From: an uncultured bacterium
GTDB taxonomy: Bacteria > Abyssobacteria > SURF-5
Length of the DNA: 13,155 bases
Reading direction: 5' to 3'
Assembly (NCBI GenBank): GCA_964510165.1
Contig: CAZEBC010000114.1
Location: 1-13,155 of the forward strand
This document shows positions 2,525 through 12,315 of this stretch, one piece after another. The stretch's first letter is position 1. Each line of letters opens with the position of its first letter. The notes under the pieces were generated by a model. It was not told the DNA's origin, ran no database searches, and saw only the letters and a program-made list of their open reading frames with translations. Made by a program: the position numbers and the translations under genes.

Positions 2525-4279
2525 TCACCTGTGCCGGTACACGAGCACATTGCGGCTGTCGTATGTCTCGAATATCAGAGGAAACGTCTTGATGAGCACG
2601 TAGTTCTGTTTGAACCACGGGTCGTCAAAGAGGCTTTCCACCCCGAAGATTTCCATGGTCACAATCCAATCGGCGTTGACAGCTCTCGCGAAAGCGGCCG
2701 AAATGCTGCCAGTGTTCGGTCCGACCCGCTTGCCGAATGGGACTGGCAGGAACGGTATGGCCTCGGGGGTGACAAGCCCGCAGGCGTCGTACAGGTGATT
2801 TCGGGAGTAGAACCCCAGCCCGCCGATTTCCGGAGCGGCTATGGTGTCGGAGGGATTGCCGGTCCGATTTATGAAATTCGCCACATCCCTGTATGTTTGG
2901 GTGCGGAAGTTGTTGCGGGGATTCACAAAATGAAGAGGCAGAAGGGGGAGACCATTGGCGCGCGCGGTGGAAACGGAGGCGGCAGTGAGAATGAGCAAGG
3001 GCGCCGCGGCCGATACCGTGCGAATGAGGAATCCTTGCTGTTCAACATTATACCGCCTGCACACGTCTGCGACTGCCTCGGCAGTGAGACAGGCTATTCC
3101 GGTCATCAGGAAGAGATACCATCCAATGAACACAATGGGGAAATACCAATCAAAGAACAACGGGTTACTGACGCCATAGAATGAGAGGATGAGAAGCGGA
3201 AAGAGCGGGATCACGAACCACGTTTTCCGCTCGGGGGGCTTTCGGAGCGCGAGGCCGGCGGCGGCCGCGAGCGTCGCGACTCCCAGCCAGAACCTTCCTC
3301 CTGGAGGAGAGGAAATCCCATACGCCATTTTCTCCAAGATATATTGGATCGCGTAGCCCGGCGGCAAAGGATAGAGGGGTCGGGATTTCGCGATAAGGGA
3401 ATGATAGACGGGAGTTCCGTAGTACACAGTGGCGAAGGCAGTCCACACGACACCGGGCAGCATGCCGGCTGCAAGAAATGGAAGCGGCTTTTTCCTGTCA
3501 TGGAGCAGCCATACGAGTCCGACCGGAAGCGCGCAGAAGATGCCCTCGGGCCGAGCCATGATGGAGAGTCCCGCCAGCGCGCTTGCGAGGATGTATCTGC
3601 CGGACATCAGGAACAGGAACGAGAACAAGACCAGGGCGCAGAAAAGAAAGGTTTCGTTCCCGCCCAGCGAAACCGTCATCATATCGTGCCGAAGCAGAAA
3701 CAGGCTGGCAGCAAGCGCACCCACCGCGGCCGAGCCGAGAAGCTTTCGGAACAAGAAGAGCAATCCGACTGCCGCCGCACAGTAGAAAATGACGTTGCCC
3801 CTGATTGCGAGCGAAGGGATTTCAATGTCCGGCAGAACAACCTTCAGGACCACGAGCCATCCCATATAGAGCGGTGTGGTGCTCCCAAACACTCGCTCGC
3901 CCGGGTTGTACACCAGGCCATGCCCCTCGAAGAGGTTGCTCACATAGCGAAACGTGATGAACGAGTCGTCATAGGGGATGGAGTACGCCTCGAAATGCAG
4001 ATAGACGGCATATGCGCAGCAGAGGATGAAGAAGAAGATTGAGGCGATCGGGACAGGCCCGACTGTGGCAAGCAGCAGTTTCCCCCTCGCCTTGCCCGCT
4101 CCCTCACGACACGCAATACAGACAGCGGCAAACACAGTGCTGCGGAGTCGCAACCAAAGCTCCCTCACCCTGCCCCCTCCCACTGGGAGAGGGTGTCCGG
4201 ACTCCAGGCCCTCTTCCACTGGGAGAGGGTTGGGGTGAGGGGCTTCGGAACCCTCGGAGTTTCTGAGCGACCCTGTCAT
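2525..4279 (-). CDS. Polytopic membrane glycosyltransferase of GT-C type (AftB/GT39-like), start uncertain
   Basis: After the first TM helix comes DDSFITFRYVSNLFEGHGLVYNPGERVFGSTTPLY, then GNET and ARPEG motifs, many TM segments, and a soluble C-terminal domain (IAAPEIGGLGFYS...DACGLVT). ATG 4279 lies 2 nt after the upstream stop at 4282; TTG 4153 is an alternative. The ORF-track start at 4600 overlaps the HEAT gene. Confidence 0.75.
   Translation of the reverse strand: MTGSLRNSEGSEAPHPNPLPVEEGLESGHPLPVGGGRVRELWLRLRSTVFAAVCIACREGAGKARGKLLLATVGPVPIASIFFFILCCAYAVYLHFEAYSIPYDDSFITFRYVSNLFEGHGLVYNPGERVFGSTTPLYMGWLVVLKVVLPDIEIPSLAIRGNVIFYCAAAVGLLFLFRKLLGSAAVGALAASLFLLRHDMMTVSLGGNETFLFCALVLFSFLFLMSGRYILASALAGLSIMARPEGIFCALPVGLVWLLHDRKKPLPFLAAGMLPGVVWTAFATVYYGTPVYHSLIAKSRPLYPLPPGYAIQYILEKMAYGISSPPGGRFWLGVATLAAAAGLALRKPPERKTWFVIPLFPLLILSFYGVSNPLFFDWYFPIVFIGWYLFLMTGIACLTAEAVADVCRRYNVEQQGFLIRTVSAAAPLLILTAASVSTARANGLPLLPLHFVNPRNNFRTQTYRDVANFINRTGNPSDTIAAPEIGGLGFYSRNHLYDACGLVTPEAIPFLPVPFGKRVGPNTGSISAAFARAVNADWIVTMEIFGVESLFDDPWFKQNYVLIKTFPLIFETYDSRNVLVYRHR
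4162..4241. repeat. Inverted pair of CCCTCNCCC..GGGNGAGGG..GGGNGAGGG elements (BoxC/intrastrand-triplex-motif-like REP doublet)
   Basis: Copy 1, ccctcaccctgccccctcccactgggagaggg (4162-4193), and copy 2, ccctcttccactgggagagggttggggtgaggg (4209-4241), are imperfect reverse complements. The spacer contains the palindrome gtccggac (4195-4202). Confidence 0.8.
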
Positions 4280-4281
4280 GT

Positions 4282-5502
4282 TTACCGCTTGACACTCATC
4301 AGTGACTGCTCGAATAACGGCTGTTCGGGGAGCTTGTCGGGGTTCTCTTGGAGCCACTTGGAGTAGGGCGCTCGCAGGTCGTCGGTGGTCTTCCCGGCAA
4401 AACGGCGACCGTCCGAGTCCCAATACATTCCTGTCATCTTCGCGAGAGCCTTGTCCGCGTCGCGCCTGACGTCTATTTCCGGGTCGGCAAGCAGTTCCAT
4501 GAGCGTCGTAAGAGTATGGCGAGAAGGGTACCCGTAAAGCTGCTCGATCACGTCCTGCCGCACTCGTTTGTTCGGATGCCGGCTGAGCGAAAGAAGGCAT
4601 TCGTACGCTTGTGGATGTTTGAGTTTGCCCAGTGCGTGGATAAAGGATATGTCATATGAAAATCCGGAATAGCTTCGGTCGGCCTTGGGGGGCGGAAGGT
4701 CCAGCACGGAGAGCATTTGGGGCACTATCGAGGGGTCGCCCATTTCGGCGATTGCGCTGATCATTCCGGGCAATTGCTCGCTCATGGCGGGGTCCGACAA
4801 CAGCCGGAGCATGGTGTCGAGGGCCCGGGGTTCCTTTCGCTCGGCGAGTTCAAACGCCGCCCAGAGGCGAACCTGCGGATTGGGATTCTCGAGCAATGCG
4901 AGCAGCGCCTCGGTAGCCTTATCGCCGGGGATGTCGCCGATCACTTGTGCCAGTATGAAGGTGTTGGGAGCGTTCGGCCCGTCGTTTGCAGCATTGAGAA
5001 TTTCCGGAACGACAGATTCTCCGCGCCTCACAAGTTCTTTTCGCGCAGGCTCGAAGAAATCGGAAAAATCATGTCGCGCGTCGTCGATGAGCTTTGACGT
5101 GGGATGAAACCTCGGTATGACAGGATATGCGTTTCTCCCGCTGGCAAATGTGCAGACGACGGCGAGAGCAAGCGCAACCAATCTCAGCTTGCTTGAGGGC
5201 GCCGAAGGCTTGATGCGTGTGACAAGAACCGCCGAAAAAGCGATGAAACTGAGTATGCCCGCTCCGATCCCGGCGGCAACCATGAACGCGATGACCGCGA
5301 TGCCAGCCCATTCTCCGCTCAGGTCCAGCAACAACATGGCCAGGATGCCTATACCAAAGGCAGCGACCAATCCGACCACCAAGGAGCCGGCCAGCGCGAG
5401 CAGGACCGCCTTTCCTTGTATGGTTGCTCCGGCGGCATACATGAAAAGGCCGATTGCCGCGACGCCCCAAAGCACGGCGTACAGCGTGGCATAAAATTGC
5501 AT
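4282..5502 (-). CDS. Membrane protein with about 4 N-terminal TM helices and C-terminal HEAT (PBS-lyase-like) repeats
   Basis: The first ~120 aa are hydrophobic. Repeats follow, such as ALLALLENPNPQVRLWAAFELAE, LSRHPNKRVRQDVIEQL and LLADPEIDVRRDADKALAK. SD AAGGGAG precedes ATG 5502. Confidence 0.8.
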   Translation of the reverse strand: MQFYATLYAVLWGVAAIGLFMYAAGATIQGKAVLLALAGSLVVGLVAAFGIGILAMLLLDLSGEWAGIAVIAFMVAAGIGAGILSFIAFSAVLVTRIKPSAPSSKLRLVALALAVVCTFASGRNAYPVIPRFHPTSKLIDDARHDFSDFFEPARKELVRRGESVVPEILNAANDGPNAPNTFILAQVIGDIPGDKATEALLALLENPNPQVRLWAAFELAERKEPRALDTMLRLLSDPAMSEQLPGMISAIAEMGDPSIVPQMLSVLDLPPPKADRSYSGFSYDISFIHALGKLKHPQAYECLLSLSRHPNKRVRQDVIEQLYGYPSRHTLTTLMELLADPEIDVRRDADKALAKMTGMYWDSDGRRFAGKTTDDLRAPYSKWLQENPDKLPEQPLFEQSLMSVKR

Positions 5503-5869: not shown

Positions 5870-7873
5870 CTACCCTATCTGCACGAGGACCGAGCCTTTC
5901 TTGACTGAGTCGCCGGACTTGCAGTTGACGGCGAGCACTTTGCCGCTGATTGGCGCAGTGAGCGTGTTCTCGACCTTCATCGCCTCGAGGATAACCACGG
6001 GGTCGCCCGCATTGACTGAGTCGCCCTCGCTGACAAGCACCTTGATAATGACGCCCGGCATAGGCGCACTGACCGCCGTAGCCCCTGCAACCGTTGCGAT
6101 GGCCGGATTGGGCGCAGGCACCGGTTTTGCCGGTGCGGCAGCGCTCGACGGCTGGGGAGCGGGCTGCGGAGGCGCGGGCTTCACAGTCGCGCCGGTTCTG
6201 GCGATGTTCTGAATGACCGGCTTTCCACCGGGTTCATCGACGGTGACCTCGAAGTGCTGCCCGTCCACGAACACGTTGAACGTACGGGCGGCGGGTCCCT
6301 TGGCGGGTGCTTCTTTCTTCGCGGCTTCGGCCTTGGACTTCTCAACCAACTCGCCTTTGAGCGCTTTCTGGATGAGTTCGTCCTCGCGCCGCGCGTCCTC
6401 GAGAGTCTTGGGCTTGAGCCCTTCGGGTACCGGCTCAAGGCCATACTTCCACTTGAGGAAGCGCTTGCCGGTGACGGGATAGAGCGCGACGATGAGGACG
6501 TCGCCGTCGTTCTTCGCGAGGCCCTTGCCTTCCTCGCGCGCCTTTTCCATGCCCGGTTCGAGCAGGTCCGCGGGCCGCTTGTCTGTGGGGGTTTGTCCGC
6601 GCGGATAGTCCTTCAGTCCGATCTCGAGCACCTTCTTGTCTATGGGTGCTGGGGTCCTGCCGTAGAGGCCGAAGAGGTAATCCTTGACCTGGTCGGAAAC
6701 CATCTTGTAGCGACCGAACAAAACGTTCTGCACGGCCTGTATGCCGACGATCTGGCTCGTGGGCGTGACGAGCGGGGGATAGCCGAGTTCCTTTCGGGTG
6801 CGCGGGAGTTCCTCGTACACTTCACTGATGCGGTCGAGCGCGTCGGCCTCGCGGAGCTGGCTGACGAGGTTGGTGGTCATGCCGCCGGGTATCTGGTGAA
6901 TGAGCACGCCCGTATCAATGATGGACATGCGCGTGGTGTCGAGGAACTGCCGGTATTTGGGCGCGATGGACTCGATGTATTCGCCCATCTGGACGAGTTC
7001 GTTCAGGTCGAGGCCGGGGTCGCGGTCGGTCCCCTGGAGCGCGACCAGCAGCGGCTCGATGGCGGGCTGAGACGAGCGGAGCGCGAACGGCGCAAGCGCG
7101 GTATCGATGATATCAACACCCGCCTCGACGGCCTTGAGGTAGCTCATCGAGGCCATGCCGCTCGTGTAGTGCGTATGCAGGCAGATGGGGATGGAGACGG
7201 CGTCCTTGAGCGCGCTGATGAGGTCGTATGCGTCCATGGGCGAGATGAGTCCGGCCATATCCTTCACGCAGAGGATGTCAGCGCCCATCTTCTCGAGGGT
7301 CTTCGCCTTGTTGACAAAATATTTGATGTTGAATACGGGGCCGCCGAGCCTGCGCTCGGTGAGCGAATAGCAGATGGTCCCTTGGATCGTCTTGCCGGCT
7401 TTCTTGATTTCATCGAACGAGGTTTCGAAGTTGCGCTCATCGTTGAGCGCGTCGAACACGCGGAACACGTCGATGCCGGCCTCGGCGGACTCCTTCACGA
7501 ACGCGCGCACGACGTCGTCGGGATAATGGCGGTATCCGACGAGGTTCTGGCCGCGCAAAAGCATCTGGAGCGGCGTGTCGGGGATCATCTTCTTGAGCGT
7601 GCGCAGCCGCTCCCACGGGTCTTCGTTGAGGAAGCGGGTGGGCACGTCGAACGTGGCGCCGCCCCACACCTCGAGCGAGTGGAAGCCCACGCGGTTCATG
7701 CGCTCGGCGATGGGGAGCATGTCCTCGGTGCGCATGCGCGTGGCGAGCGTGGACTGGTGGCCGTCGCGAAGCGTCGTATCGGTGATCTTCACCGGATTCT
7801 TGCCGGTTGATTTCGAGCCTTTTTTTTCGTCCTTCTTCTTGCGGATCTTGTCTTTATCCTTATTGTGTCCCAT
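5870..7873 (-). CDS. oadA: Pyruvate/oxaloacetate carboxyltransferase fused to a C-terminal biotinyl domain (OadA/PycB family; transcarboxylase 5S+1.3S-like)
   Basis: DTTLRDGHQS, EVWGGATFD, LLRGQNLVGY, KDMAG, HTH metal ligands, QIPGGM and YPPLVTPTSQIVG are present. An Ala/Pro linker leads to the biotinyl domain APMPG...EAMKVEN. SD AGGAGGA at 7881-7887. The symbol marks the family only; pycB fits equally. Confidence 0.92.
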   Translation of the reverse strand: MGHNKDKDKIRKKKDEKKGSKSTGKNPVKITDTTLRDGHQSTLATRMRTEDMLPIAERMNRVGFHSLEVWGGATFDVPTRFLNEDPWERLRTLKKMIPDTPLQMLLRGQNLVGYRHYPDDVVRAFVKESAEAGIDVFRVFDALNDERNFETSFDEIKKAGKTIQGTICYSLTERRLGGPVFNIKYFVNKAKTLEKMGADILCVKDMAGLISPMDAYDLISALKDAVSIPICLHTHYTSGMASMSYLKAVEAGVDIIDTALAPFALRSSQPAIEPLLVALQGTDRDPGLDLNELVQMGEYIESIAPKYRQFLDTTRMSIIDTGVLIHQIPGGMTTNLVSQLREADALDRISEVYEELPRTRKELGYPPLVTPTSQIVGIQAVQNVLFGRYKMVSDQVKDYLFGLYGRTPAPIDKKVLEIGLKDYPRGQTPTDKRPADLLEPGMEKAREEGKGLAKNDGDVLIVALYPVTGKRFLKWKYGLEPVPEGLKPKTLEDARREDELIQKALKGELVEKSKAEAAKKEAPAKGPAARTFNVFVDGQHFEVTVDEPGGKPVIQNIARTGATVKPAPPQPAPQPSSAAAPAKPVPAPNPAIATVAGATAVSAPMPGVIIKVLVSEGDSVNAGDPVVILEAMKVENTLTAPISGKVLAVNCKSGDSVKKGSVLVQIG

Positions 7874-7915: not shown

Positions 7916-8107
7916 TCATCTCGGTACGATGCGAAGCTGCCACATCTGACGATGGCGCATGATTTCCTGACGGCCCGACTGGCTCCACAGGTCAATGGTT
8001 GGCAGCGAGGGTCGTTCCCTGGCCGCTCTTTCTGCCGCCTGTTGGGATTCGATATAGGCGTTTACGCCGGCGCTGATCGCCGCCACAAGTTTCTTGTCAA
8101 GTTCCAT
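7916..8107 (-). CDS. Small accessory protein resembling acyl-CoA carboxylase epsilon-type subunits
   Basis: The 63 aa contain an AAISAGVNAY helix and a W-x-x-SGR motif, a pattern seen in epsilon-like subunits. It has SD AGGGG and lies between the two carboxyltransferase genes on the same strand. Confidence 0.7.
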   Translation of the reverse strand: MELDKKLVAAISAGVNAYIESQQAAERAARERPSLPTIDLWSQSGRQEIMRHRQMWQLRIVPR

Positions 8108-8178
8108 GAAATACCCCTATCAACCACCAAGGCGCAAAGAATTCGGGAAAAAAACCGCTCATAAGTCGCAGTTCCGGC

Positions 8179-8225
8179 GTAGGGGGGCCCTGTGTGGCCA
8201 ACCAGGCGCCCACATAGGGGCCTAC
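8179..8225. repeat. GTAG...CTAC REP doublet (REPIN-like)
   Basis: gtaggggggccctgtgtggccaacc-a-ggcgcccacataggggcctac: two inverted, degenerate GTAG-type REP halves. Confidence 0.65.
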
Positions 8226-8268
8226 AATTCCGGGACAGTCTTTTTTGCGCTTTCCCCTTTTACCCTAT

Positions 8269-9825
8269 TTACATCGGTATATTCCCGTGTTTCTTTGGCG
8301 GGCGGCTCTCGCGTTTGGAGAGCAGCACCCGCAGCGCCTCGATCAGGCGGGGACGCGTGTCGCGCGGGTGAATGACCGCGTCGACGTGCCCGCGCGAGGC
8401 CGCGATATAAGGATTCGAAAATATCTCTTCGTATTCGCGCACTTTCTGCTTGCGCATGGCGTCGGGGTCGGCGGCCTCCTTGATCTCCTTGCGATGGATG
8501 ATGTTGGCCGCGCCTGCCGCGCCCATAACGGCGACCTCAGCGGTGGGCCATGCGAGCACGTAGTCGGCGCCGAGGTCGGGGCTGCACATCGCGAGGTACG
8601 CGCCGCCGATGCTCTTGCGGATCAGGAGGGTGAGCTTCGGCACGGTTGCCTCCGAGTAGCACCAAAGGAGTTTCGCACCGTGACGGATGATGCCGCTCCA
8701 TTCCTGGTCGCTGCCGGGCAGATAGCCGGGGACATCCACCATCGTGAGGAGCGGGATGTTGAATGCGTCGCAGAACCGGATGAAGCGAGTGGCCTTGTCA
8801 GAGGCGTTCACGTCGAGGCTGCCCGCCAGCGCTTTGGGCTGATTGGCGATGATGCCGACGGTGTGCCCATCGAGTCGCGCGAGGCAGACGATCATGTTTT
8901 CGGCGTAGTATTGGTGAGGTTCGATGAAGGCGCCTCCGTCAACCAGCGAGCGGATGATGTCCTTCATGTCATAGTTTTTGCGCGGGTCGTCGGGAATGAC
9001 CGAATCGAGCGCCGGGTCGGTGCGACGGGGGTCGTCACCGAGGTCAACGACGGGCGGGTCCTGCATGTTGTTCGACGGCAAATATGAGAGCAGTTCGCGG
9101 ATGCGCGCGATGGCGTCCTGGTCGTTTTCGCACGCGAAATGGGCGACGCCGCTCTTGGTGTTGTGGGTCATCGCGCCGCCGAGTTCCTCGAAGCTGATCT
9201 GTTCGCCGGTGACCGCCTTGATGACCTCGGGGCCGGTGATGAACATGTAACTTGTGTTCTTCACCATGAACACCCAATCGGTCATCGCGGGCGAGTAGAC
9301 GGCGCCTCCGGCGGTCGGCCCCATGATGGCCGATATCTGCGGAATCACGCCCGAGGCGCAGGCGTTGCGGAAGAAGATGTTGCCGTAGCCGCTGAGCGCG
9401 TCGACGCCTTCCTGTATGCGCGCGCCGCCCGAATCGTTGAAGCCGACGACGGGCGCTCCGTTCTTCATTGCGAGGTCCATGATCTTGCAGATTTTCCTGG
9501 AGTGCATCTCGCCGAGCGTGCCGCCGACTGAGGTGAAATCCTGCGAGAAGGCGAAGACGGTACGACCCTCGACAGTGCCGTGGCCGGTGACGACGCCCTC
9601 TCCGGGGATGAAGGTGTCGGCCATTCCGAAATGGGCGCAGCGATGGCGCACGAACATGCCCATTTCGACGAAGCTGCCCGGGTCGAAGAAAAGGTCCAGC
9701 CGTTCGCGCGCCGTGAGTTTTCCCGATTCGTGCTGCTTGCGGATTCGCTCCTCTCCGCCCATGGCGAGTTCGCGCTCGATTCTCCGGTCGAGGTCGGTCA
9801 GCTTGTCGGAAATGCTCTCTGGCAT
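8269..9825 (-). CDS. pccB: Acyl-CoA carboxyltransferase beta subunit (methylmalonyl-/propionyl-CoA type; PccB/MmdA/transcarboxylase 12S family)
   Basis: GKLTARER, GEGVVTGHG, SQDFTSVGGTLG, NDSGGARIQEGV, GGAVYSPAMTD, DVPGYLPG, RHGAKLL and the C-terminal KKHGNIPM are present. SD AAGGAGAG precedes ATG 9825. The symbol marks the family only. Confidence 0.93.
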   Translation of the reverse strand: MPESISDKLTDLDRRIERELAMGGEERIRKQHESGKLTARERLDLFFDPGSFVEMGMFVRHRCAHFGMADTFIPGEGVVTGHGTVEGRTVFAFSQDFTSVGGTLGEMHSRKICKIMDLAMKNGAPVVGFNDSGGARIQEGVDALSGYGNIFFRNACASGVIPQISAIMGPTAGGAVYSPAMTDWVFMVKNTSYMFITGPEVIKAVTGEQISFEELGGAMTHNTKSGVAHFACENDQDAIARIRELLSYLPSNNMQDPPVVDLGDDPRRTDPALDSVIPDDPRKNYDMKDIIRSLVDGGAFIEPHQYYAENMIVCLARLDGHTVGIIANQPKALAGSLDVNASDKATRFIRFCDAFNIPLLTMVDVPGYLPGSDQEWSGIIRHGAKLLWCYSEATVPKLTLLIRKSIGGAYLAMCSPDLGADYVLAWPTAEVAVMGAAGAANIIHRKEIKEAADPDAMRKQKVREYEEIFSNPYIAASRGHVDAVIHPRDTRPRLIEALRVLLSKRESRPPKKHGNIPM

Positions 9826-9878
9826 GGGGTCCGTCTCTCCTTATACGTTCATGGTCTCATGGGGGCGCTCATTGGGGC

Positions 9879-9910
9879 AAAAAACGAAGGCCGCTCATGG
9901 GAGCGGTCGC
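9879..9910 (-). terminator. Intrinsic-terminator-like hairpin inside the 5' leader of the carboxyltransferase operon (attenuator candidate)
   Basis: The minus strand reads GCGA-CCGCUC-[CCAU]-GAGCGG-(CCU bulge)-UCGU-UUUUU, ending about 55 nt upstream of ATG 9825. Confidence 0.55.
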
Positions 9911-10097
9911 AAATAACATCTTATCGCGAGAGCCCGTGTCTCGGCAGCGAATACCGTATCCATACTGTTCTGGCTCTGCGACCCTTCAGGGCTGTGCGCC
10001 TCGCCGGATTCATGTCGCCCTTTTGTGATCGACCCGGACGGTCTCTCGCGTGTGGGGTATTCGGGCTTTTGTTTTGAATGACGGACCGAAGTCCTGT
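9879..10097 (-). ncRNA. Candidate structured cis-regulatory leader RNA (riboswitch/attenuator-like), family not recognised
   Basis: 5' GGAC-UUCG-GUCC hairpin; long-range helix 10038-10050/9925-9937; inner stems; a terminator; and a 9-bp antiterminator 9975-9983/9905-9913. Confidence 0.45.
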
Positions 10098-10101
10098 TGC
10101 A

Positions 10102-10130
10102 ATTCTATCCAATCGCCGATGAATTGTCAA
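10102..10130 (-). promoter_or_regulatory. sigma70-type promoter of the carboxyltransferase operon
   Basis: The minus strand has TTGACA (10130-10125), 17 nt, then TAGAAT (10107-10102). Predicted TSS is near 10095. Confidence 0.75.
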
Positions 10131-10262
10131 ACGGCTCGCGGCGGCTATTGTGGTGGTTCCAAAAGTGGATTCACTCAAAGGAATCCGTGCCCCTGCGACT
10201 AGAAACCGAATTACGGGACGGTCTCTGTTGAGCGATGTTCTAATGGATTCTGTAAAATCCCT

Positions 10263-10306
10263 GGCATTGCGAGAAATCCCGCTGCAAGCGGGATGACGAA
10301 GCAATC
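10263..10306. repeat. (G)TCATTGCGAG...CGAAGCAATC-type REP-like palindrome
   Basis: ggcattgcgagaa-atcccgc-tgcaa-gcgggat-gacgaagcaatc: an inner 7-bp stem plus outer attgc/gcaat pairing. Confidence 0.65.
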
Positions 10307-10360
10307 ACGACACAACGCGGAAAACGCCTTTCGCCCTTCATGCGTCGCCCACCCGAGTTA

Positions 10361-10492
10361 TCACGCGTTTCGCATGATTCGCGTGATCCGCCTCTCCGAA
10401 CCGTCCGATCCGTCCGACTTGTCCGACGCAGTTTCCCTCTTCGCCAGGGCTTACGCATCTGAACCCTGAACCTTGACCTTCGGACCTTGGAA
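10361..10492. repeat. Adjacent short tandem repeat tracts of three different families
   Basis: A 9-nt CGCGAA-type tract on the minus strand (10361-10386); four TCCGA units with period 9 (10392-10427); about five degenerate 7-mers, ctgaacc-ctgaacc-ttgacct-tcggacc-ttggaa (10459-10492). Confidence 0.65.
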
Positions 10493-10725
10493 TGTGTCCC
10501 CATTGTCACGGCTCATTCTGGGCGCTTTGGCCGTTTTTTCCGCCCGCGCATAACGAAATTGTCAAAGGATGTCCCCGTTTCGCCGATTCTTTCCCGTCCA
10601 GGTGAAACGCCCCGACCCGGGAGCAGGCACGCTCACGTGTCAGCGCTATTCATAACTCATTGCATCTAAAGGGGTTATTTCCATCCAGGCGCGCCCGCGC
10701 AAGACCCGAAAGGCTTGGCCCCCTC

Positions 10726-10736
10726 TGTGGTATGTT
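10726..10736 (+). promoter_or_regulatory. Possible extended -10 promoter for the OmpA-family gene
   Basis: TGTG-G-TATGTT resembles TRTGnTATAAT, about 60 nt upstream of ATG 10797. There is no good -35. Confidence 0.3.
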
Positions 10737-10796
10737 TTATGCTTCCCCTTCATTGAAAATCTCAGCCCTGAACTGCCACATGGAGGAGAACGCCAG

Positions 10797-11813
10797 ATGA
10801 GAATCGTCAAATACACATTGATGCTCTTTGTCGTCATCAGCCTTATGACCGTATCTCCCGCGATAGCGGCGGCGCAGGCCGGCAGCGGGTCGGGTGACGA
10901 CTCGCTCACGCTCACTCTGGACCGGAAATACATGCCCAAGACCATTTTCTATCCCGGACTCCTGTGCACCGACGCCGACACAATCACCGTGCATGAATAT
11001 GTCATCCGGGACCATCTCGGCAAACCGATTGACGGCTTCATAATCCAGACGGCGTCGGGTCAGACGTTGGTCCCCGTCGAGAAAGTCAAGGAGATCAGCT
11101 TCGAGCAGTGCATTCGACACAAGACCAGGGACGTCGATCACGTCTATTTTGTCGAAGACGCTCGCATGGTGCTGACCAGCGGCAAGGAAATGAGCGTCAT
11201 CATGAACGCCGACTTCGGAACTGTCGAGGGAAAAACCAAGCTGGGCGATTTCTTCCTCGGCGACCCGCACACGGTCAAGAAGCTGGTGTTCAACCGGGAA
11301 GCGGCGGCCGAACCCGAACCGGCGCCTCCGGCGGCGCCAGGGCCTCAGGAACCCGCGCCCCAGGAAGCGCGGCCTGTTACTCCTCCTGAAGTTGACAGCG
11401 ACGGCGACGGCGTGCCCGACTCTCGGGACAAATGCCCCGACACCCCGAAGGGAGCGAAGGTCACCGAGGAAGGCTGCTGGACAATCAAGGGAGTCAACTT
11501 CGATTACAACAAATGGGATATCAAGCCCGAGTATTTCAGCGTGATGGATGAGAATGTACGCGTGCTGCTTATGAACCCGACCATGGAAATCGAGATACAG
11601 GGACACACCGACAGCATCGCGTCGGAAAAATACAACCAGTGGCTCTCCGAGAAAAGGGCCAACTCGGCCAAAGAGTATTTCGTATCCAAGGACGTGAACG
11701 AGAAACGCATCACCACACGCGGCTTTGGTGAGACGAGGCCGATAGTCTCGAACGATACTCCCGAGGGTCGCGCGAAGAACCGCAGAATCGAAATCATGGT
11801 AACCAACAAGTAA
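10797..11813 (+). CDS. OmpA-family peptidoglycan-binding protein: signal peptide, unrecognised ~132-aa beta-rich domain, Pro/Ala linker, TSP3-like Ca-binding loop, OmpA C-terminal domain
   Basis: SD GGAGGAG; signal peptide ending in AIA/AAA; DSDGDGVPDSRDKCPDTP; VNFDYNK, IQGHTDS, YNQWLSEKRA, GFGETRP and GRAKNRRIE. Confidence 0.9.
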   Translation: MRIVKYTLMLFVVISLMTVSPAIAAAQAGSGSGDDSLTLTLDRKYMPKTIFYPGLLCTDADTITVHEYVIRDHLGKPIDGFIIQTASGQTLVPVEKVKEISFEQCIRHKTRDVDHVYFVEDARMVLTSGKEMSVIMNADFGTVEGKTKLGDFFLGDPHTVKKLVFNREAAAEPEPAPPAAPGPQEPAPQEARPVTPPEVDSDGDGVPDSRDKCPDTPKGAKVTEEGCWTIKGVNFDYNKWDIKPEYFSVMDENVRVLLMNPTMEIEIQGHTDSIASEKYNQWLSEKRANSAKEYFVSKDVNEKRITTRGFGETRPIVSNDTPEGRAKNRRIEIMVTNK

Positions 11814-11826
11814 GGGAGGCTGACTG

Positions 11827-12315
11827 ATGAAGGCATCCAAATGCGTCTTGACCGTTACGCTCGCAGTCGTTGTGGCGCTGACACTCGTCGGCGAGGCAAT
11901 GGCCGAAAGGAAGGAATCAATCACCGTTACTCTCGACCGCAAGGTATACCCCGCCGTCATCTTCTATCCGGGCCTGTGCTGGACGGAGCCCCAAACGGTG
12001 ACGGTGAACAACTATGCCATCCGTAATTATCTCGGAATTCCCGTCGAGGGGTTCATCATTCAGACGGTCTCAGGACAGACCCAAGTGCCCCTTTACCTGG
12101 TGAAGGAAATCAAATTCGACGGGTGCATACACCATAAGACGCAGGATATCGACCACATCTACTTCGTGCAGTGGGCCGACATGACTCTGGTGGATGGAAC
12201 CCGGATGCGCGTGCTGGCAAATGCTGATTTCGGTACGATAGAGGGCGATACCGAGGATGGCGCGTTCTTCCTCGGCGACCCGCACACCGTGAAACACATC
12301 GTCTTCAATCGGTAG
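11827..12315 (+). CDS. Secreted protein consisting only of a paralog of the N-terminal domain of the upstream OmpA-family protein
   Basis: SD GGGAGG; signal peptide ending in AMA. By hand, it aligns without gaps to the upstream domain at 82/132 identities (about 62%). Confidence 0.85.
   Translation: MKASKCVLTVTLAVVVALTLVGEAMAERKESITVTLDRKVYPAVIFYPGLCWTEPQTVTVNNYAIRNYLGIPVEGFIIQTVSGQTQVPLYLVKEIKFDGCIHHKTQDIDHIYFVQWADMTLVDGTRMRVLANADFGTIEGDTEDGAFFLGDPHTVKHIVFNR

What the first reader, a model, noticed from the sequence alone, without database searches (positions are those of the whole stretch)
9879..10130. Candidate new riboswitch/attenuator controlling a biotin-dependent carboxyl-transfer operon
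Seen in sequence (minus strand): TTGACA-N17-TAGAAT puts the TSS about 270 nt upstream of the first gene. The transcript would begin with a GGAC(UUCG)GUCC hairpin. CGCGAGAG-A-CCGU (10050-10038) pairs with ACGG-G-CUCUCGCG (9937-9925), closing a ~100-nt domain. Inside are the stems CCGG-GUCG...CGAC-(AUGAAU)-CCGG and GCG-(CACA)-GCCC-UGAA-GGGU-CGC. CGAAUACC (10063-10056) is perfectly complementary to GGUAUUCG (9955-9948), giving a pseudoknot or an alternative fold. A terminator-like hairpin with a U tract follows (9910-9879). Its 5' arm is overlapped by UUUGCGACC (9913-9905), which can instead form 9 bp with GGUCGCAGA (9983-9975), a strand of an inner stem. Established: an aptamer strand doubling as antiterminator is the usual design of transcriptional riboswitches. 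I could not match it by eye to SAM-I, TPP, FMN, cobalamin, glycine, lysine or c-di-AMP consensus sequences. Inference: it may sense a ligand tied to carboxyl transfer (an acyl-CoA, biotin, oxaloacetate/pyruvate or an ion), or bind a regulatory protein.
Basis: partly seen in the sequence, partly recalled or inferred. Interest (0 to 1): 0.8.

Follow-up and report, generated by a model that had tools for sequence, protein, structure and literature searches.

The report
Translated leader attenuator before transcarboxylase operon
The long untranslated stretch ahead of a biotin-dependent transcarboxylase operon is a family-conserved leader, but it looks like a small translated reading frame that ends at a terminator hairpin, so that ribosomes would decide read-through, and not like a metabolite-sensing riboswitch.

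Summary

Orthologous operons in all 10 genomes of this family carry the same unit:
- a conserved promoter (9 of 9 loci that reach it);
- a short C-rich box;
- an SD-like motif plus AUG;
- an almost invariant 7-bp hairpin plus U-run (9 of 10 loci).

The riboswitch reading is not supported:
- No Rfam match in the window or in the 9 orthologous loci.
- The leader folds no better than shuffled sequence (z = 0.05).
- RNAalifold recovers only the terminator.
- The proposed antiterminator is not conserved.

What is conserved instead is a 30-37-codon open frame. It starts at the conserved AUG and stops 1-14 nt before the terminator stem in 7 of 9 loci; in 2 it reads through. P is about 5e-4 to 5e-6 against shuffles. 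The peptide sequence itself is not conserved.

Best reading (confidence 0.45): a translation-gated attenuator of the pyrE/pyrBI type. Main rival: a sRNA or dual-function RNA gene. No transcript data exist.

The parts
10102..10130 (-). Sigma-70-type promoter: -35 TTGACA (10130-10125), 17-nt spacer, -10 TAGAAT (10107-10102). The predicted transcription start lies around 10098-10094.
   Evidence: 11 of 12 matches. The same promoter is found in 9 of 9 orthologous loci that reach that far, or 8 by the stricter rule. Sequence is also conserved in and around the spacer. The transcription start is inferred, not mapped.
10083..10094 (-). 5' hairpin GGAC-UUCG-GUCC at the predicted start of the transcript.
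   Evidence: A strain variant at 10084 turns one G-C pair into G-U. The hairpin sequence is not conserved in other genomes: 25% of cells pair.
10054..10060 (-). C-rich box, AUACCCC here and (A/U)CACCC(C/U) in the relatives. It is the only conserved motif of the 5' untranslated part. Function unknown.
   Evidence: the invariant A and C columns of alignment A1. No significant pairing partner was found.
10018..10022 (-). Shine-Dalgarno-like AAGGG, 4 nt before the leader AUG.
   Evidence: A purine-rich GAGG/AAGG-type motif lies before the aligned start in most loci (SD regions printed).
9921..10013 (-). Leader open reading frame of 30 codons plus TAA. The stop codon ends 14 nt before the conserved upper stem of the terminator and 10 nt before the predicted lower stem.
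   Evidence: frame maintained in 7 of 9 loci; peptide not conserved, no Pfam family.
9879..9910 (-). Intrinsic-terminator-like element: lower stem 9910-9907 / 9887-9884, upper stem CCGCUC 9906-9901 / GAGCGG 9896-9891, loop CCAU, U-run 9884-9879.
   Evidence: The upper stem is present in 9 of 10 loci with no compensatory change, only U-A to U-G (91.7% of cells paired).
9856..9865 (-). Second conserved C-rich box, CCCCCAUGAG, between the terminator and the operon's ribosome-binding site. Role unknown.
   Evidence: seen in L031, L032, L034, L038, L040. (79% identity block in G006 covering query 231-308).
8269..9825 (-). Carboxyltransferase (12S-type) gene, the first gene of the operon, with SD AAGGAGAG at 9842-9835.
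   Evidence: PF01039, E 8.7e-196. (orthologues 81-89% identical in 9 other genomes).
7916..8107 (-). Conserved 63-codon gene between the two enzyme genes. It serves as an internal control for what a real small protein looks like in these genomes.
   Evidence: 53-70% amino-acid identity in 9 of 9 other loci; no Pfam family.
5870..7873 (-). 5S-type carboxyltransferase (HMGL-like plus PYC_OADA) fused to a biotinyl carrier domain.
   Evidence: Conserved downstream of the first gene in 10 of 10 loci.

Best explanation
The region is the transcribed leader of the transcarboxylase operon, and it works as a translation-gated attenuator.

Proposed mechanism:
1. A strong, conserved promoter starts an RNA of about 215 nt.
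2. That RNA carries a ribosome-binding site and a short reading frame (30 codons here).
3. The frame's stop codon lies 1-14 nt in front of a GC-rich hairpin followed by a U-run.
4. If a ribosome follows the polymerase through this frame, it covers the foot or the 5' arm of the hairpin when the polymerase reaches the U-run. The terminator cannot form and transcription runs into the operon.
5. If the frame is not translated, or the ribosome lags, the hairpin forms and the transcript ends near 9880.

The peptide itself has no function; only the act of translating it matters. The input that sets translation of the frame is not identified. It could be ribosome availability, or a factor acting on the C-rich box or on hairpins around the start.

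Shown: the anatomy and its conservation. Inferred: transcription start, termination, translation of the frame, and the coupling.
For: 1. Conserved module. The promoter-to-hairpin distance is 224-259 nt in 8 loci, with the promoter in 9 of 9 and the hairpin plus U-run in 9 of 10 orthologous loci.

2. Maintained frame. A frame starting at the aligned SD-like motif plus AUG/GUG runs 30-37 codons and stops 1, 3, 7, 10, 12, 12 and 14 nt before the upper stem in 7 of 9 loci with a terminator. In L033 and L040 the frame from the aligned AUG reads through the hairpin instead.

3. Shuffle tests, all assuming independent loci:
- anchored at the aligned start: P about 1e-7;
- anchor-free: 7 of 9, P about 5e-6;
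- strictest null, keeping the real last 18 nt: P about 5.5e-4;
- collapsing close relatives into 6 lineages gives about 2e-3 (my own arithmetic on the figures).

4. The frame persists despite 56-68% DNA identity, indels that are not multiples of three, and mismatches spread evenly over codon positions. The real 63-codon gene in the same operon keeps 53-70% amino-acid identity. This is the pattern of a leader peptide.

5. Promoters. The leader promoter is the only sigma-70-like promoter within 560 nt upstream of the first gene (found in 8 loci). None lies between hairpin and gene in 10 of 10 loci.

6. Synteny. The upstream neighbour is not conserved, while the operon downstream is. L034 has lost the 5' arm of the hairpin but keeps promoter and leader.

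7. Established knowledge. In E. coli, moving a stop codon from 28 to 5 bp before terminator tR2 lowers termination from about 90% to under 10%, and 10-15 nt of free RNA are needed for the hairpin (PMC4824070, section 10, read). The rph stop-codon position sets read-through at the pyrE attenuator (passages of PMC2784333).

8. Strain contigs show 0 differences in 9826-10078. There are 5 in 9764-9786 and several upstream of the promoter.
Against: - No transcript, 5'-end, 3'-end or ribosome data exist. No RNA run was listed, so start, termination and translation are all inferred.
- A stop codon close to a terminator is also what any ordinary small gene looks like.
- The frame test weakens to about 5e-4 (about 2e-3 by lineage) under the strict null. 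One start (L036) was chosen after looking for a frame. Another reading frame is also often open in this GC-rich leader.
- Two of 9 loci do not have the stop before the hairpin, and the SD-like motif is weak or absent in L032 and L033.
- The U-run starts 4-7 nt after the conserved stem in several loci with no predicted lower stem, so the terminator may be weak.
- The model does not explain why the hairpin stem sequence is nearly invariant with no compensatory changes, nor what the C-rich box does.
- The distance from hairpin to gene varies from 76 to 274 nt. This fits an independent RNA gene as well.
- The promoter scan covers sigma-70 consensus only.
Confidence: 0.45

Rival explanations
1. An independent small-RNA gene, possibly dual-function with a small frame, that merely sits upstream of the operon. 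It would have its own promoter, a conserved single-stranded C-rich seed (the CACCC box) that pairs with G-rich ribosome-binding sites of target mRNAs in trans, a variable body, and a conserved terminator that ends the RNA. The operon would be transcribed by read-through or from an unrecognised promoter.
For: - The conservation pattern is that of many trans-acting sRNAs (this comparison is from general knowledge, recalled): promoter, one short motif and the terminator stem are conserved and everything else drifts.
- The terminator stem is conserved at the sequence level with 0 compensatory changes.
- The promoter-to-terminator length is constant (224-259 nt), whereas the terminator-to-gene distance varies from 76 to 274 nt, with inserted palindromic repeats.
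- The box has no significant partner in cis.
Against: - No sigma-70-like promoter lies between terminator and gene in 10 of 10 loci, and in 6 loci that gap is only 60-65 nt.
- The module is always with this operon, although the upstream neighbour changes.
- It is single-copy and absent from the paralogous carboxyltransferase loci.
- L034 lost the terminator arm but kept promoter and leader.
- This reading does not explain the maintained reading frame.
- No target search was done.
Confidence: 0.25
2. A ligand- or protein-responsive transcription attenuator without translation, which is the first reader's reading in a wider form. The 5' part, including the C-rich box, would bind a metabolite, ion or RNA-binding protein and thereby decide whether the conserved hairpin forms.
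For: - The leader, the box and the hairpin are conserved.
- The invariant hairpin stem with a variable loop (4-6 nt) suits sequence-specific recognition at the RNA level.
- In the window itself a long closing helix (shuffle fraction 0.027) and a 9-bp antiterminator candidate can be drawn.
- The box resembles the ACANCCCC bulge of the NAD+-I riboswitch domain (abstract of PMC7297122, seen in the listing).
Against: - No Rfam family matches: 0 hits at gathering, 0 at E<=10 on 9780-10320, and nothing in the leaders of the 9 other loci at E<=1.
- MFE z-scores of the 10 leaders average -0.81, and the window's is 0.05.
- RNAalifold finds only the terminator.
- The closing helix and antiterminator are not conserved.
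- Only about 5 nucleotides are conserved in the 5' part, far fewer than in known aptamers.
- Caveat: the set is only 10 sequences, aligned by sequence and not by structure.
Confidence: 0.15
3. An ordinary small-protein gene with its own promoter and terminator, in which the 30-37-residue product is the functional entity.
For: An SD-like motif, a start codon, a maintained frame and a terminator right after the stop codon.
Against: - The peptides are not alignable beyond a shared N-terminal decapeptide in L038/L039.
- DNA identity is 56-68%, with frame-shifting indels and no third-position excess of mismatches.
- 0 of 7 peptides reach a Pfam cut-off.
- The genuine small protein of the same operon keeps 53-70% identity over the same genomes.
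Confidence: 0.07

Closest known systems
pyrE attenuator behind rph, and the pyrBI leader, of Escherichia coli (attenuation through coupling of translation to transcription)
   Same: An upstream reading frame ends close to, or runs through, an intrinsic terminator placed before the regulated gene. A ribosome close behind the polymerase prevents hairpin formation, and no antiterminator helix is required. The dependence on stop-codon position is described in passages of PMC2784333. The pyrBI details are recalled, not read here.
   Different: Here the frame is a dedicated leader of 30-37 codons, not the end of a real gene (rph). The regulated genes are a biotin-dependent transcarboxylase, not pyrimidine genes. 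No UTP-sensitive pause logic is evident or tested. Nothing here is experimentally shown.
Position effect of terminator tR2 behind a translated gene (Li et al., Nucleic Acids Res 2016, PMC4824070)
   Same: The geometry matches. Stop codons 1-14 nt before the stem fall in the range where ribosomes repressed termination: about 90% to under 10% when the stop moved from 28 to 5 bp, with 10-15 nt of free RNA needed (section 10).
   Different: That was a synthetic reporter in E. coli. It shows the principle, not that this natural leader uses it.
Classical leader-peptide attenuators (trp, his, leu type)
   Same: A short translated leader frame upstream of an intrinsic terminator within the 5' leader of an operon.
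   Different: Those need runs of regulatory codons and a conserved 2:3 antiterminator, and their stop codon lies well before the terminator. Here there is no shared codon bias (peptides), no conserved antiterminator, and the stop abuts the terminator.
   Same: A long 5' leader ending in a terminator. A C-rich box recalls the ACANCCCC bulge of the NAD+-I domain (abstract of PMC7297122).
   Different: No covariance-model match at any threshold tried, no conserved aptamer helices, and no conserved expression platform. In most loci the box has one C fewer than that bulge.
Dual-function or 5'-leader-derived small RNAs (for example SgrS/SgrT; recalled, not read here)
   Same: Own promoter, conserved short motif, conserved terminator, and a poorly conserved small frame.
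   Different: No target, no trans effect and no separate promoter for the downstream operon is known here.

Membership tests
Known riboswitch or RNA family (Rfam 15, including NAD+-I/nadA, nhaA-I/DUF1646, SAM, TPP, FMN, cobalamin, glycine, lysine, c-di-AMP) | Covariance-model match | tested here: not met
   0 matches at gathering over the window. 0 at E<=10 on 9780-10320. In 9 orthologous loci, only 3 sub-threshold plant-miRNA matches, all outside the leaders.
Transcriptional riboswitch (generic) | Conserved aptamer helices with covariation | tested here: not met
RNAalifold on 10 leaders finds only the terminator, with 0 compensatory pairs. Caveat: 10 sequences, sequence-based alignment.
Transcriptional riboswitch (generic) | Unusually stable fold | tested here: not met
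   z = -1.33 with the terminator. Without it, z = 0.05 for the window and a mean of -0.81 over 10 leaders.
Transcriptional riboswitch (generic) | Conserved antiterminator overlapping the terminator's 5' arm | tested here: not met
   Best duplexes are no better than shuffles: window 0.10, and combined p = 0.58 over 9 loci.
Transcriptional riboswitch (generic) | Direct ligand binding | not testable with these tools
   Needs in-line probing or in vitro transcription.
Translation-coupled attenuator (pyrE/pyrBI type) | Translatable frame in the leader with a ribosome-binding site | tested here: met
   An SD-like motif plus AUG/GUG at an aligned position. The frame is maintained in 7 of 9 loci, P 5.5e-4 to 1e-7 depending on the null. 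Translation itself is not shown.
Translation-coupled attenuator (pyrE/pyrBI type) | Frame ends within ribosome reach of the terminator hairpin, or runs through it | tested here: met
   The stop ends 1-14 nt before the upper stem in 7 of 9 loci and the frame reads through in 2 of 9. The range is that of PMC4824070 section 10.
Translation-coupled attenuator (pyrE/pyrBI type) | Intrinsic terminator between promoter and structural genes, with no downstream promoter | tested here: inconclusive
   Hairpin plus U-run in 9 of 10 loci. No sigma-70-like promoter after it in 10 of 10. However, the U-run is offset by 4-7 nt in several loci, other sigma factors were not scanned, and no 3' ends are mapped.
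Translation-coupled attenuator (pyrE/pyrBI type) | Read-through depends on translation of the frame | not testable with these tools
   Needs reporter fusions or Term-seq. No RNA run was available.
Classical leader-peptide attenuator (trp type) | Run of regulatory codons and a conserved alternative 2:3 helix | tested here: not met
   The peptides share no codon run, and there is no conserved antiterminator.
Trans-acting small RNA | Own promoter and terminator with a conserved seed | tested here: inconclusive
   Promoter, box and terminator are conserved. That the box is single-stranded, and that it has any targets, was not established.

The most novel reading that the evidence does not exclude
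The leader may be a new, lineage-specific riboregulator. Its invariant elements, the CACCC box and the sequence-invariant terminator stem, would be recognised by a dedicated RNA-binding protein or small ligand that sets translation of the leader frame. The prematurely terminated 215-nt RNA might also act in trans through its C-rich box. That would be a combined sensor, leader-peptide and sRNA device controlling a central carbon-carboxylation enzyme in an uncultivated phylum.
Probability: 0.15. Interest if true: 0.6.

Novelty: new member of a known kind. Interest (0 to 1): 0.35.

Why it matters
If the reading is right, this is a natural and evolutionarily maintained case of a principle so far shown mainly in E. 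coli pyrimidine operons and synthetic constructs: a terminator placed within ribosome reach of a stop codon turns ribosome traffic into a transcriptional switch.

It would be the first cis-regulatory element described for a transcarboxylase operon. Two literature searches found none. It comes from a phylum represented by only 11 genomes in the held set.

It is also a caution for motif hunters. A GC-rich leader can be drawn as a convincing aptamer that comparative data do not support.

Tried and rejected
- Promoter-pattern scans of metagenome contigs and genome contigs. Of all the loci fetched by these two scans and read by the script, only L231 carries the operon, and it is the same contig as G006/L032.
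- Sequencing runs: no RNA holder was listed. Only DNA contigs could be laid.
- The search of earlier findings returned nothing by place, sequence or words.
- Structure-aware alignment (mafft-qinsi) is not installed. All alignments are therefore sequence-based.
- Pairing of the C-rich box with the start of the frame is no better than shuffles, combined p = 0.50.
- C-rich / G-poor composition as a Rho-loading site: only a mild signal, 31% C against 23% G in the first 65 nt. Not pursued.
- An upstream extension of the frame over the box was rejected by my own reading of the sequences printed. The box sits in different frames relative to the leader frame in L038, L039 and L040, and 2 of 3 substitutions there would be second-position changes.
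- PyrR-type and NAD+-I-type resemblances (recalled motifs): no Rfam support.
The statement that the peptides are not conserved rests on the translations printed and the pairwise DNA alignments.
- Bonekamp et al. 1984 (PMC557777) is not held. It is cited only through the reference list of PMC2784333.
- No supplementary files were consulted.

Full report
WHAT IS THERE

On the minus strand the window carries the following, in order:
- A near-consensus sigma-70 promoter: TTGACA, 17 nt, TAGAAT, at 10130-10102, 11 of 12 matches.
- A leader of about 270 nt.
- A carboxyltransferase gene, 9825-8269 (PF01039, E 8.7e-196).
- A 63-codon frame, 8107-7916.
- A 5S-type carboxyltransferase fused to a biotinyl domain, 7873-5870.

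This gene set is that of a methylmalonyl-CoA:pyruvate transcarboxylase-like enzyme. That assignment is an inference from the domains.

The hairpin CCGCUC-CCAU-GAGCGG followed by a U-run is at 9906-9879.

IS IT MORE THAN CHANCE, AND IS IT A KNOWN RNA?

- Rfam 15 gives no match at gathering thresholds in the window.
- It gives none at E<=10 in 9780-10320.
- It gives nothing in the leaders of nine orthologous loci at E<=1. Three sub-threshold plant-miRNA matches lie elsewhere.
- The leader folds no better than dinucleotide shuffles. z = -1.33 with the terminator, with 24 of 200 shuffles as good. z = 0.05 without it.
- The terminator-like scan finds one site where shuffles give 1.2.

Taken alone, the window therefore gives no statistical reason to believe in a structured domain.

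COMPARATIVE EVIDENCE

The genome (325 contigs, 4.17 Mb) belongs to a phylum with only 11 genomes in the held set. All 10 genomes of its family have an orthologous first gene, 81-89% identical to the window's. The single genome of the sister family has only a 58% paralogue.

Upstream of the orthologues I found the following:
- The same promoter in 9 of 9 loci that reach that far (L040 ends at a contig edge).
- A short C-rich box, (A/U)CACCC(C/U).
- An SD-like purine run followed by AUG or GUG, often in the form AUGAAUC.
- A hairpin GCCGCUC-loop-G(A/G)GCGGC plus a U-run in 9 of 10 loci. L034 has lost the 5' arm.

Distances and neighbours:
- Promoter to hairpin is 224-259 nt.
- Hairpin to start codon varies from 76 to 274 nt, the longer gaps holding palindromic repeat insertions.
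- The gene upstream of the promoter is not conserved.
- The 5S gene downstream is conserved in 10 of 10 loci.
- The module is single-copy in the genome and absent from the paralogous loci.

Contigs of a near-identical strain in other metagenomes show two differences in the first 22 nt of the transcript. One keeps the 5' hairpin as G-U. They show none in 9826-10078, against five in 9764-9786 and several upstream of the promoter.

TEST OF THE RIBOSWITCH MODEL

- RNAalifold, run on the MAFFT alignment of the ten leaders (A1), recovers only the terminator, with no compensatory change.
Controls with the 3' partner slid by 1-3 columns give 31-41% overall. The covariation score is reached by 232 of 500 shuffles. 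The terminator pairs in 91.7% of cells.
- A duplex search for the long closing helix at the equivalent place beats shuffles only in the window (0.027) and in L040 (0.043), out of 9 loci.
- The proposed antiterminator is the best duplex in the window but is reached by 10% of shuffles. Over 9 loci the combined p is 0.58.
- MFE z-scores of the ten leaders average -0.81.

The alignment is sequence-based and the set is small, so a subtle structure cannot be excluded. Still, nothing supports an aptamer or a conserved expression platform.

WHAT IS CONSERVED INSTEAD

From the aligned AUG a reading frame runs 30-37 codons. It stops 14, 10, 7, 12, 12, 1 and 3 nt before the conserved stem in L031 (the window, 10013-9921), L032, L035, L036, L037, L038 and L039. 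In L033 and L040 the frame from the aligned AUG reads through the hairpin.

Tests against dinucleotide shuffles, assuming independent loci:
- Anchored at the aligned start: about 6% per locus, P about 1e-7 for 7 of 9.
- Anchor-free (any ATG/GTG frame of 25 codons or more ending within 15 nt of the stem): P about 5e-6.
- Real last 18 nt kept and only the body shuffled: P about 5.5e-4.
- Collapsing close relatives into six lineages: roughly 2e-3 (my own arithmetic on the figures).

The frame is kept although the DNA is only 56-68% identical between pairs, indels are not multiples of three, and mismatches are spread evenly over codon positions. None of 7 peptides reaches a Pfam cut-off. By contrast the 63-codon gene inside the operon keeps 53-70% amino-acid identity in all nine other loci. 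A frame that is maintained while its product is free to change is the signature of a leader peptide.

MECHANISM PROPOSED

A ribosome at a stop codon protects about 10 nt downstream of the A site. In E. coli, moving a stop codon from 28 to 5 bp before terminator tR2 lowered termination from about 90% to under 10%, an effect abolished by removing translation. About 10-15 nt of free RNA are needed for the hairpin to close (PMC4824070, section 10). The rph stop-codon position likewise sets read-through at the pyrE attenuator (passages of PMC2784333). Tight coupling is described as preventing intrinsic terminator hairpins (abstract of PMC5021804).

The distances found here (1-14 nt, or read-through) fall within that range. 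No sigma-70-like promoter lies between hairpin and gene in any of the 10 loci.

I therefore read the element as a translation-gated attenuator. Translation of the leader frame permits read-through into the operon, and lack of it lets the hairpin end the transcript near 9880.

Shown: the anatomy and its conservation. Inferred: the transcription start, termination, translation, coupling, and the physiological input.

WHAT THIS DOES NOT EXPLAIN

- The C-rich box has no significant partner.
- The hairpin stem is almost invariant in sequence, whereas its loop varies from 4 to 6 nt.
- In several loci the U-run starts 4-7 nt after the stem.

These features, together with the constant RNA length and the variable distance to the gene, fit a trans-acting or dual-function small RNA. 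I keep that as the main rival (0.25). A factor- or ligand-responsive attenuator without translation stays at 0.15, and an ordinary small-protein gene at 0.07.

COMPARISON WITH KNOWN SYSTEMS AND NOVELTY

The element works like the pyrE/pyrBI class of coupling-dependent attenuators. It differs in having a dedicated short leader frame that abuts the terminator, and in the genes it controls.

It is not a member of any Rfam family. It fails the defining tests of a riboswitch and of a trp-type attenuator.

Two full-text searches found no described leader or riboswitch for transcarboxylase genes. The search for transcarboxylase with leader, attenuation and terminator returned 0 papers. The search for methylmalonyl-CoA carboxyltransferase with riboswitch returned 2 reviews, of which I saw only the search listing.

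I rate it a new member of a known kind, of moderate interest, with all functional steps still to be tested.

Noticed in passing
window 9856-9865 (minus strand); also L032, L034, L038, L040 upstream regions: A second conserved box, CCCCCAUGA(G), lies about 40 nt before the operon's start codon. In five loci the AUG/GUG in it opens a 3-5-codon mini-frame that stops just before the operon's Shine-Dalgarno sequence. No SD precedes it. Its role is unknown.
   Followed up: partly
window 7916-8107 (minus strand): A 63-codon frame between the two enzyme genes is conserved at 53-70% amino-acid identity in all 9 other loci but matches no Pfam family. It is probably an unannotated small subunit of the enzyme.
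   Followed up: partly
window about 8130-8230 (minus strand, between the first gene and the 63-codon frame); L033 and L034 leader or spacer regions: GC-rich palindromic repeat elements of the type GTAGGGGCG...CGCCCCTAC are inserted in intergenic spacers of several family genomes. One of them sits inside the leader frame of L034. A similar element lies in the window between the operon genes.
   Followed up: no
window 10100-10130 (minus strand): The promoter is conserved beyond the two hexamers: GATTGGATAGAATTG, and in three loci an inverted repeat CAATTC...GAATTG spanning it. This could be an operator for a DNA-binding regulator acting at initiation.
   Followed up: no
window 10140-10737: About 600 nt upstream of the promoter hold no frame with a Pfam match and no Rfam match. 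The 407-codon frame (10737-11960, minus strand) and the 691-codon frame (2525-4600, minus strand) also have no Pfam family.
   Followed up: no
window 9700-10300: Near-identical strains occur in one further freshwater run and in runs of a hot-spring study (coded runs X2-X5). Differences cluster in the first codons of the carboxyltransferase gene (9764-9786) and upstream of the promoter.
   Followed up: partly
L034 (G001) leader: This genome has lost the 5' arm of the terminator hairpin while keeping promoter, box and leader frame. It is a natural variant that should express the operon without attenuation.
   Followed up: no
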